Positions 32,246 to 34,724 of a stretch of DNA of 64,000 nucleotides are shown here, one piece after another. Below the pieces are notes generated by a model. That model ran no database searches. It was not told the origin of the DNA and saw only the letters and a program-made list of their open reading frames with translations. Source of the stretch: Eledone cirrhosa (taxonomy: Eukaryota). The stretch spans positions 1 through 64,000 of the forward strand of contig CAXHJY010001600.1 in NCBI GenBank assembly GCA_964016885.1, written 5' to 3'. The position numbers and the translations under genes are program-made. Every line of letters starts with the position of its first letter. Position 1 is the stretch's first letter.

Positions 32246-32390
32246 GTTGTAACTAATTATACATAACTCGTCCTAAGGTCTGATTGCTCTAAACCCTTGG
32301 ATATTTATACCAAGTTTGTACTACAATAAATACATATATATATACCATGATATTAAATAAATGGAAACTATATTTATAAAACCATATTTA

Positions 32391-32448
32391 TTTTATATAT
32401 ATTTCAAGGGCAACCAAGCAAATCTTGGTGCGCTTTCATCAGATAAAA
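32391..32448 (-). ncRNA. Type I hammerhead ribozyme (stem III shortened)
   Basis: Reverse complement reads TTTTAT-CTGATGA-AAGCGCACCAAG-ATTTG-CTTGGTTGCCCTT-GAAA-TATAT-ATAAAA. Confidence 0.65.
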
Positions 32449-33717
32449 TACAAAGTTTGTTTTATAAATAAAGATGTACCCATGAAAATCATAAGTATCG
32501 GTCGGAAATTCACTGGATAGTGGAACCATATGAGGGATTATTCAAAGTTATGTGTGAATATGCAAATGAATGTGTAAATAATTGAAAAAACAACCCTTTA
32601 TTTAAATGACGCTGGGGAAAGATAGGGAAGAAAGAGAGAGAGAAAAAATACTAATATTATAAGATAGATAGAGAGAAAAAATTTACAAGAGGATGAATAG
32701 ATCTCATGAAATGTAAATAAGTTTTAAGTTTATATCTACTAATGGTACGGATATTTACTATTATTTTGTTGTTACAATTCTTTTCTAATATAATATAATA
32801 TTTACTATTATAAGTAGATAGAAAAAATAGATATATATAGAAAAATAAATATATATAAAAAATTTAGATGGAAAAATATATTGAAAAATAAATAGATAGA
32901 AAATAGATAAATAGAAGAATCAATAGATAGAAAAATAGATAGACAGAAATATAGATATATGAATGGATAGATGGGTATATCTTGTTATAGATAATTGTTT
33001 TATCCCTTAGTTATGAGGGATATTGGTTTATATTTAGTGTAAGTAATTAAGTTAACTGAGTTAATAAGAATATTTATATATTTTAAATGTTTTGAATTGG
33101 GAAGATATGGAAAAAACCACCAGTTTTGTTTGTTTATTAGTTATTACGAGACCATTTGTCAAAGATATAAATATATTTTGCCTGAATTAGTTATTGGTTA
33201 TAAATCTAATACAAGATATTAAAAAATTTTATTAAAAAATATTAAATTCTTGAAATTTTTTTTTTAATTTTCGGAAAATATTTTTTAAAAAATGTTTAAA
33301 TAATTTTAAAAATCTAAAAAAAAAAAAATTTTTTTTTTAATTTTTAAAAATTATTTTAAATTATTTTTATAAGAGATAAGCAGATTTTAAAAAAAAAAGT
33401 CATTTTTTTTAAATATAAGTAATTTTTTTAAAATAAGTAATTTTTTTAAAATAAGTAATTTTTAAAATATATGAAATATTTTAGAAGTAAAAAATAAAGA
33501 ATAAAAATGAAAAATGAAAGATTTAAGTAAAAAATTAAAAAATAAAGAATTAAAAAACCTTAATAAATATTAACTTCAAAGTTAAAATTAAAATTAAAAT
33601 TTAAAAATTTAGGATCATATATGTATATAATTTAAGAAAATTTAATAAGTGAAATTATAAGAAGTGAAATTATAGCAAACAATATATGGAAATAAGTAGA
33701 AATGTTATAAGTGTAAT

Positions 33718-33860
33718 TATAATTTATCTATAGTTTTAAACGTTGAATTTAGGCGATGTTTACAAGAACTAAATAAATTCATATGTATATTAATAGAGTT
33801 CTTACATTTAAGTATGAAGAAAATTTCCTCAACACACAATTTGCAAAATCTAGATAAAGC
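33718..33860 (-). pseudogene. PLE GIY-YIG endonuclease C-terminal fragment
   Basis: ALSRFCKLCVEEIFFILKCKNSINIHMNLFSSCKHRLNSTFKTIDKL*, fitting the C.LC..E...I...N...C.HR motif. Confidence 0.75.
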
Positions 33861-34603
33861 TAGATAAATGTTTTTTTAATTTTTCTTTAATATTTTCAGA
33901 AAATTTAAAAAAAATTTTCCAGAATTCTTTAATATTTATTAATATTTTTAAATATTTGTTAATATCTTTTATTAGATTTATAACCAATAACTAATTCAGG
34001 CTAAATATATTTATATCTTTGACAAATGGTCTCATATTAACTAATAAAGAAACAAAACTGGTAGTTTTTTCCGTATCTTCCCAATTTAAAACATTTAAAT
34101 TATATAAATAGTCTTATTAACTCAGTTAACTTAATTACTTACACCAAATATAAACCAATATCCCTCATAACTCATTAAAACAATTATCTATAACAAGATA
34201 TACCCATCTATCCATTCATATATCTATATTTCTGTCTATCTATTGATTCTTCTATTTATCTATTTTCTATCTATTTATTTTTCAATATAATTTTCCATCT
34301 AAATTTTTTATATATATTTATTTTTCTATATATATCTATTTTTTCTATCTACTTATAATAGTAAATATTATATTATATTAGAAAAGAATTGTAACAACAA
34401 AATAATAGTAAATATACGTATCATTGGTAGATATAAACTTAAAACTTATTTACATTACATGAGTTCTATTCATCCTCTTGTAAATTTCTTCTCTCTATCT
34501 ATCTCATAATATTAATATTTTTTCTCTCTCTCTTTCTTCCCTATCTTTCCCCAGCGTCATTTAAATAAACGGTTGTTTTTTTCAATTATTTATTTAATAT
34601 CAT

Positions 34604-34662
<59 letters not shown>

Positions 34663-34724
34663 TTATTGTAGTACAAACTGTTAGACATGCAAAGAAATAA
34701 ATAGCTCATACTTTCTTAAATAAT

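What the first reader, a model, noticed from the sequence alone, without database searches (positions are those of the whole stretch)
32313..34679. 2.3-kb fold-back Penelope element whose flanking DNA is also duplicated in inverted orientation
Beyond the inverted pLTR arms, the left flank AGTTTGTACTACAATAAATACAT(TA)n (32313-32335) reappears as an exact reverse complement on the right (34657-34679). Inference: the inverted arm was templated from the newly integrated strand and ran through into target DNA, giving an inverted rather than direct target duplication. The right arm also skips ~215 bp containing the HHR at an AAATAA-like microhomology.
Basis: partly seen in the sequence, partly recalled or inferred. 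Interest (0 to 1): 0.7.

Follow-up and report, generated by a model that had tools for sequence, protein, structure and literature searches.

The report
Fold-back transposon with mirrored flank
A mirror-shaped copy of a Penelope-like jumping gene has the same 23 flanking bases on both sides in mirror orientation, most likely because its second arm was copied back along the first and ran into the neighbouring DNA, a rare repair accident rather than the way this family normally inserts.

Summary
The element is a two-armed, 5'-truncated copy of a Hydra-clade Penelope-like element (PLE): left arm 32345-33861, inverted right arm about 33869-34605 lacking 217 nt that include the hammerhead. The 23-mer is not unique host DNA. 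It is the last 14 nt of an older PLE plus 9 nt of decayed (TA)n. The right-hand 23-mer is still a local copy: the exact 26-mer occurs only here, twice. This is an exception for the family. Of 98 other copies, 65 pair a short end with a 92-nt tail end; none seen is a contiguous short+short pair like this one. Best reading (0.6): fold-back synthesis along the first arm ran through a short TA tract into the flank. Strong rival (0.3): a TA-centred snap-back palindrome formed first and the element inserted into its centre. Such palindromes occur here without any element (19 of 1,342 TA runs), and two other copies (L049, L157) have mirrored flanks with no fold-back arm. No empty allele was found. 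Inverted duplications at insertion sites are already described for human L1 and yeast breaks. Earlier scan notes described the normal two-start-site layout on other DNA of this genome.

The parts
32112..32144 (-). Short inverted arm of the older host PLE (family B)
   Evidence: Differs from B's direct arm at 5 of 33 sites (counted); same layout in other B copies
32179..32326 (+). Direct arm and tail end of host PLE family B, with a hammerhead-like core (CTGAATGA...GAAA, read from sequence, not folded)
   Evidence: 2,034 candidates, best hits 81-88% identical; 77-89% to 28 held copies; family end ...GTACTACA(A/G) then TA
32313..32335 (+). Left copy of the 23-mer: last 14 nt of family B plus 9 nt of decayed TA tail
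32327..32344 (.). Short, decayed (TA)n target tract (only 11 nt pure)
32345..33861 (-). Left arm of family A (Hydra-clade PLE), 3' end at 32345 in the short (tail-less) form, 5'-truncated at 33861
   Evidence: 2,535 candidates, 91-95% identical; colinear with L050 and L089 to 33861
32368..32474 (-). Hammerhead ribozyme fold; activity not tested
   Evidence: fold z = -3.3, 0 of 200 shuffles as stable; core positions; no Rfam hammerhead hit at E <= 1
33720..33860 (-). C-terminal 47 codons of the ORF (endonuclease end with CxxC..E and CxH)
   Evidence: tblastn to a full-length homologue E = 0.024
33862..33868 (.). 7-nt filler at the arm junction, a re-copy of adjacent AGATAAA
   Evidence: read
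33869..34605 (+). Inverted right arm of family A, also with the short end; 217-nt deletion at 34587/34588 through TAAAT
   Evidence: deletion junction unique in the genome
34606..34658 (.). (TA)26 tract
34657..34679 (-). Right, inverted copy of the 23-mer, joined directly to non-repeat DNA
34680..34717 (.). Single-copy right flank, followed by a high-copy SINE-like repeat at about 34718-34910

Best explanation
This is a Hydra-clade Penelope-like insertion in the TA tail of an older element, with mirrored 23-nt flanks, and its second arm was likely made by copying DNA back along the first arm and on into the flank. Shown: identity of the element, the short+short ends, the local origin of the right 23-mer, the left-to-right direction of copying (the left arm is longer and keeps the 217 nt). 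Inferred: the endonuclease cut the TA tract; the left end primed reverse transcription at the short start site for about 1.5 kb; the free 3' end folded back about 570 nt upstream; synthesis skipped the hammerhead region through TAAAT, crossed the short TA tract, copied the flank, and was end-joined to a right end that had lost its TA. Whether this happened during insertion or at a break soon after is not resolved.
For: One event explains two rarities. Short+short ends: 0 contiguous cases among 98 short-end loci (65 short+tail, 28 no partner found, 5 'short' calls of which 2 are altered tails and 3 lie 3.8-6.1 kb away). A short arm cannot template a tail, so a DNA fold-back must give like ends. 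A like-ended tail+tail copy exists (L199) whose arms share 3 rare alleles with 1 private in 181 sites; its TA tracts are long and its flanks are not mirrored, whereas here the pure tract is 11 nt. The 23-mers are identical while the host element's own arms differ at 5 of 33 sites, so the duplication is probably younger than the host element and fits the age of the arms (3.7%). Arms are sisters in a tree, support 0.95. Fold-back duplications at retrotransposon cuts are documented for L1 (PMC10191854; bioRxiv 10.1101/2024.12.14.628481).
Against: Mirrored flanks occur without a fold-back arm in 2 of 98 loci (L157, L049) and around bare TA tracts with similar lengths (24 nt L095, 25 nt L144). Sisterhood of the arms does not discriminate: ordinary short+tail pairs share rare alleles at 30 of 4,023 sites (0.75%), about the rate here (4-5 of 616). 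One end of the deletion sits just before the hammerhead stem, where tail-started cDNAs stop somewhat more often (13 of 89 at positions 1-23 against 18 at 33-112, some loci counted twice), which leans weakly to synthesis from the outside in. The arms match poorly at the supposed fold-back point, in a very unstable A/T-rich stretch. No empty allele.
Confidence: 0.6

Rival explanations
1. A break in the TA tail of the host element was first healed by snap-back (self-complementary TA folds on itself, 23 nt of flank copied, end-joined), giving a small TA-centred palindrome. The PLE later inserted into its centre by priming from both ends; the right end used the short start site or later lost its tail.
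For: 19 of 1,342 TA runs have inverted arms of 11 nt or more against 0.37% in shuffles (several hits are low-complexity and the sample is enriched for PLE loci). L095 (24 nt exact) and L144 (25 nt) are joined straight to unrelated DNA, as here. L157 is a short+tail copy and L049 a one-armed copy plus LINE inside such mirrored flanks. Yeast breaks give 5-34 bp fold-back duplications (PMC11724301). Deletion polarity leans weakly this way.
Against: Needs a second, independent rarity: short+short ends, not seen in about 67 two-armed copies. The identical 23-mers argue against formation when the host element inserted, so an extra break must be assumed.
Confidence: 0.3
2. The right arm was copied from RNA, either a read-through transcript that included the flank or after the right end first borrowed the left flank as template.
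For: PLE reverse transcriptase starts internally on the RNA without homology and weakly at RNA 3' ends (PMC11167929, main text). The deletion starts near a stop region for cDNAs.
Against: The left copy is 5'-truncated, so it is an unlikely donor; re-insertion exactly at its own 5' end or a double template jump is needed. The deletion junction is found in no other copy.
Confidence: 0.06
3. The right 23-mer is an independent, very short insertion of family B, or chance.
For: The 23-mer is mostly a family-B terminus; 45 exact 17-mer ends genome-wide; these families insert next to each other in TA tracts.
Against: The shared tail variant is in 0 of the first 30 of those 45 ends, and the 26-mer exists only at this locus.
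Confidence: 0.03
4. Assembly artefact from a fold-back read on an unplaced contig.
For: The window is on a small unplaced contig; no run covered the right junction.
Against: Arms differ by 3.7% with private indels and a 217-nt deletion; one contig of run X3 matches 34869-35240 with no differences.
Confidence: 0.01

Closest known systems
Hydra clade of EN+ Penelope-like elements (Craig et al. 2021, PMC8557442; passages and the Hydra section read)
   Same: C-terminal endonuclease after RT, DKT, CxCx5C, CxxC and CxH motifs, hammerhead, (TA)n target; inverted 5'-truncated second arm and an optional tail at one end are described for PLEs generally.
   Different: Tail here is 92 nt rather than 30-40. 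This copy has no tail at either end and has mirrored flank; the passages read do not describe that.
Poseidon PAc in vitro (Frangieh et al. 2024, PMC11167929; parts 1-2 of 4 read)
   Same: Both strands cut and extended; two fixed RT start sites separated by the tail. This fits the normal short+tail copies of the family.
   Different: No inverted flank duplication in the text read; different clade.
L1 insertions with fold-back inversion / inverted duplication of target DNA (PMC10191854, passages: 3 cases, 0.3%, plus 1 combined, about 52-220 bp; bioRxiv 10.1101/2024.12.14.628481, passages, Fig. 4 legend)
   Same: Rare inverted duplication of flank at a retrotransposon cut, attributed to self-annealing and DNA synthesis before end-joining; one case primed by TA/AT homology.
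   Different: In the described L1 cases the reciprocal end duplicates its own flank; here the copy lies on the far side of the element and, in the best reading, the element arm is copied too.
Short fold-back inverted duplications at yeast double-strand breaks (PMC11724301; abstract and one results section read)
   Same: Length (mostly 5-34 bp) and joining with 0-5 bp microhomology match the 23-mer and the bare TA palindromes.
   Different: No retroelement involved; primed by a 10-bp inverted microhomology rather than (TA)n.
Adineta vaga Penelope elements (PMC3846280; passages and Discussion read)
   Same: Inverted pLTR structures, self-priming proposed, microhomology deletions.
   Different: Those copies have direct 8-10 bp target duplications or none.

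Membership tests
EN+ Penelope-like elements | RT followed by C-terminal GIY-YIG-type endonuclease in one ORF | tested here: met
   Sister copies L088, L089, L092, L096 carry broken ORF pieces in that order, E to 7e-79 against a 737-aa homologue; the window holds only the last 47 codons. Pfam gave no significant hit on the fragments.
EN+ Penelope-like elements | Hammerhead ribozyme in the terminal repeat | tested here: met
   Core motifs and stems; no Rfam hit; cleavage not tested.
EN+ Penelope-like elements | Inverted 5'-truncated second arm, optional tail at one end | tested here: met
   65 of 98 short-end loci have an inverted tail end; this copy has the inverted arm but no tail.
Hydra clade | DKT motif | tested here: met
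   SDKTNN in L089 and L092.
Hydra clade | CxCx5C linker; CxxC and CxH beside conserved E and N | tested here: met
   CNCRIKSNC in L088, L089, L092, L096; CKLCVEE and CKHR in the window.
Hydra clade | N-terminal RWK motif | tested here: inconclusive
   No family copy held reaches that far; a loose [RD]W[KR] pattern is in 30 of 35 homologues.
Hydra clade | Insertion in (TA)n | tested here: met
   Short ends were selected on TA, so they are no test; tail ends found without that condition are nearly all followed by TA or CA/TA repeats.
Hydra clade | Phylogenetic placement with named Hydra elements | not tested
   No named reference sequences were fetched.
Naiad clade | N-terminal endonuclease, no hammerhead | tested here: not met
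   Endonuclease is C-terminal and a hammerhead is present.
Target-site duplication as a family trait (inverted form) | Recurrent mirrored flank at two-armed copies | tested here: not met
   1 of 96 loci in the flank test (L157) plus L049 found later; neither is short+short.

The most novel reading that the evidence does not exclude
Cuts by Penelope-like endonucleases in self-complementary (TA)n leave a genome-wide class of mirrored-flank scars (about 1% of TA tracts near these elements), with or without an insertion, and this locus is the case where the snap-back copied a whole cDNA arm: direct evidence that PLE second-strand synthesis can be self-primed on DNA.
Probability: 0.3. Interest if true: 0.55.

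Novelty: new variant of a known kind. Interest (0 to 1): 0.3.

Why it matters
How PLE insertions are finished after first-strand synthesis is unresolved. The normal copies here support priming from both cut ends at two start sites; rare like-ended copies such as this one would mark a second, DNA fold-back route. The side result, frequent TA-centred inverted duplications, gives a countable footprint for break repair in TA-rich genomes. As a single locus with two live explanations, and with analogues known for L1 and yeast, it is modest.

Tried and rejected
Rfam found no hammerhead. Pfam and PDB sequence searches on ORF fragments found nothing significant; the protein atlas was unavailable. Shared-rare-allele test did not separate fold-back from two-ended priming. 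Folding of the deleted stretch gives a long-range helix on either strand and does not fix polarity. An apparent second short+short pair (L213) is a short+tail copy with a mutated tail start. The ~7983 motif is unrelated. Gilbert et al. 2005 was not held. Searches for an inverted target duplication in print: searches found no PLE report; most subscription journals and all supplements were not seen.

Full report
OBSERVATION. The left 23-mer (32313-32335) and the right one (34657-34679) are exact reverse complements. With three more bases the motif occurs twice in the 3.0-Gb assembly, both here. The arms differ at 23 of 616 aligned sites. The right arm lacks 32363-32579, 217 nt, joined through TAAAT; that junction is unique in the genome. 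The gap removes a hammerhead fold on the minus strand. Rfam did not detect the hammerhead.

WHAT THE ELEMENT IS. The arm belongs to a family with 2,535 candidate places, best copies 91-95% identical. The left arm runs 1,517 nt to 33861, colinear with longer copies; the right arm starts after a 7-nt filler, so the apparent loop is element sequence. The inner end of the left arm encodes the last 47 residues of the ORF. Longer copies hold broken RT and endonuclease frames with 35 homologues of 650-806 aa. DKT, CxCx5C, CxxC..E and CxH motifs, a hammerhead and TA targets match the Hydra clade as defined in PMC8557442; no tree with named elements was built. The repeat content suggests a cephalopod (recalled; earlier scan notes say octopus-like).

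WHAT THE FLANK IS. The left flank is the 3' end of another, older PLE-like family, B (2,034 candidates). Its copies end ...GTACTACA(A/G) then TA. The 23-mer is 14 nt of B plus 9 nt of decayed TA. Of 45 exact B ends the first 30 were read: none has the tail variant seen here and none has an inverted copy within 1.5 kb. So the right 23-mer was copied from the left. The motif at ~7983 is inside the tail of a third element and shares 13 nt.

IS IT A FAMILY RULE? No. Of 117 exact short ends, 100 were listed; 98 loci other than this one and the tail-in pair L134 were classed: 65 with an inverted tail end, 28 with no partner found, 5 called short. Of those 5, L062 and L093 are altered tails, L140 is a different subfamily 3.8 kb away, and L144 and L159 lie 5-6 kb away and were not inspected further. 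A second scan of all held loci found 59 inverted pairs: 50 short+tail, 6 with one degenerate end, 1 tail+tail (L199), 2 short+short (L093, L140). In many normal copies the short arm reaches deeper than the tail arm, so neither can be a copy of the other; this fits priming from both cut ends at two start sites (PMC11167929). The window copy is the exception. A flank test on 96 loci found one mirrored flank at a junction, L157 (L049 and L146 were left out by that script); L049 was found later.

TWO MECHANISMS. (A) Fold-back with run-through. It gives like ends by necessity and mirrors the flank when the TA tract is short; here the pure tract is 11 nt. L199 is like-ended with long TA tracts, no mirrored flank, and arms sharing 3 rare alleles against 1 private. 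The 23-mers are identical while B's own arms differ at 5 of 33 sites, so the duplication is probably later than B's insertion. (B) Prior snap-back palindrome. In 884 kb of held DNA, 19 of 1,342 TA runs have inverted arms of 11 nt or more, against 99 of 26,817 shuffled pairs; some hits are low-complexity and the sample is PLE-rich. L095 (24 nt) and L144 (25 nt) look just like the predicted empty site. L166 mirrors 75-80 nt of a tail with its odd end. L134 mirrors about 500 nt spanning two families. L157 and L049 show elements inside mirrored flanks with no fold-back arm; L049's match is 66 nt exact.

WEIGHING. Unselected mirrored-flank cases were both of type B, which lowers the prior for A. 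But B needs short+short ends by another route, unseen in about 67 two-armed copies. Tests that did not decide: arm sisterhood (support 0.95) is matched by normal pairs, 30 shared rare alleles in 4,023 sites against 26 in 68,391 across loci; deletion polarity leans weakly to B; the arms match poorly at the fold-back point in hypervariable sequence; no empty allele. My estimate, a judgement and not a computed value: A 0.6, B 0.3.

COMPARISON. Inverted PLE arms and tails are long known (PMC3846280, PMC8557442). Inverted duplication of target DNA is reported for L1 at about 0.3% of insertions (PMC10191854) and ascribed to self-annealing at cut ends (bioRxiv 10.1101/2024.12.14.628481); yeast breaks give 5-34 bp fold-backs (PMC11724301). 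PMC12016303 (passages) covers twin priming only. Searches found no report of mirrored flanks at PLE insertions; supplements and most subscription papers were not seen.

VERDICT. Real, local, rare. A new variant of a known kind of break-repair scar at a PLE insertion, not a new insertion signature. Interest 0.3.

Noticed in passing
L095:6692-6813, L144:4941-5004, L162:3048-3153, L148:2196-2630, L120:1240-1321: Exact or near-exact inverted duplications of 24-48 nt centred on a (TA)n tract with no element inside; about 1% excess over shuffles in the held sample.
   Followed up: partly
L157:440-1240: A tiny short+tail copy (65 nt) at the centre of an array of an 18-nt flank piece, 3 units left and 5 right, in mirror orientation.
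   Followed up: partly
L049:4050-6370: 66-nt exact mirrored flank around a one-armed family A copy and a 1.7-kb LINE.
   Followed up: partly
L134:2400-3700: About 500-nt inverted duplication, tails facing inward, spanning the junction of two PLE families, with a SINE in the middle.
   Followed up: partly
L199:1501-1890: Tail+tail fold-back copy whose arms share three rare alleles.
   Followed up: partly
window 7975-8385: A third inverted-repeat hammerhead element between TA tracts.
   Followed up: partly
family A short arms, about 174-182 nt from the end: Strong truncation hot spot beside a small hairpin: 26 of 102 short arms end at 174-182 in the L008 frame.
   Followed up: no
window 2051-30116: Several kilobase-long degenerate (TA)n arrays interrupting LINE reading frames.
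   Followed up: no
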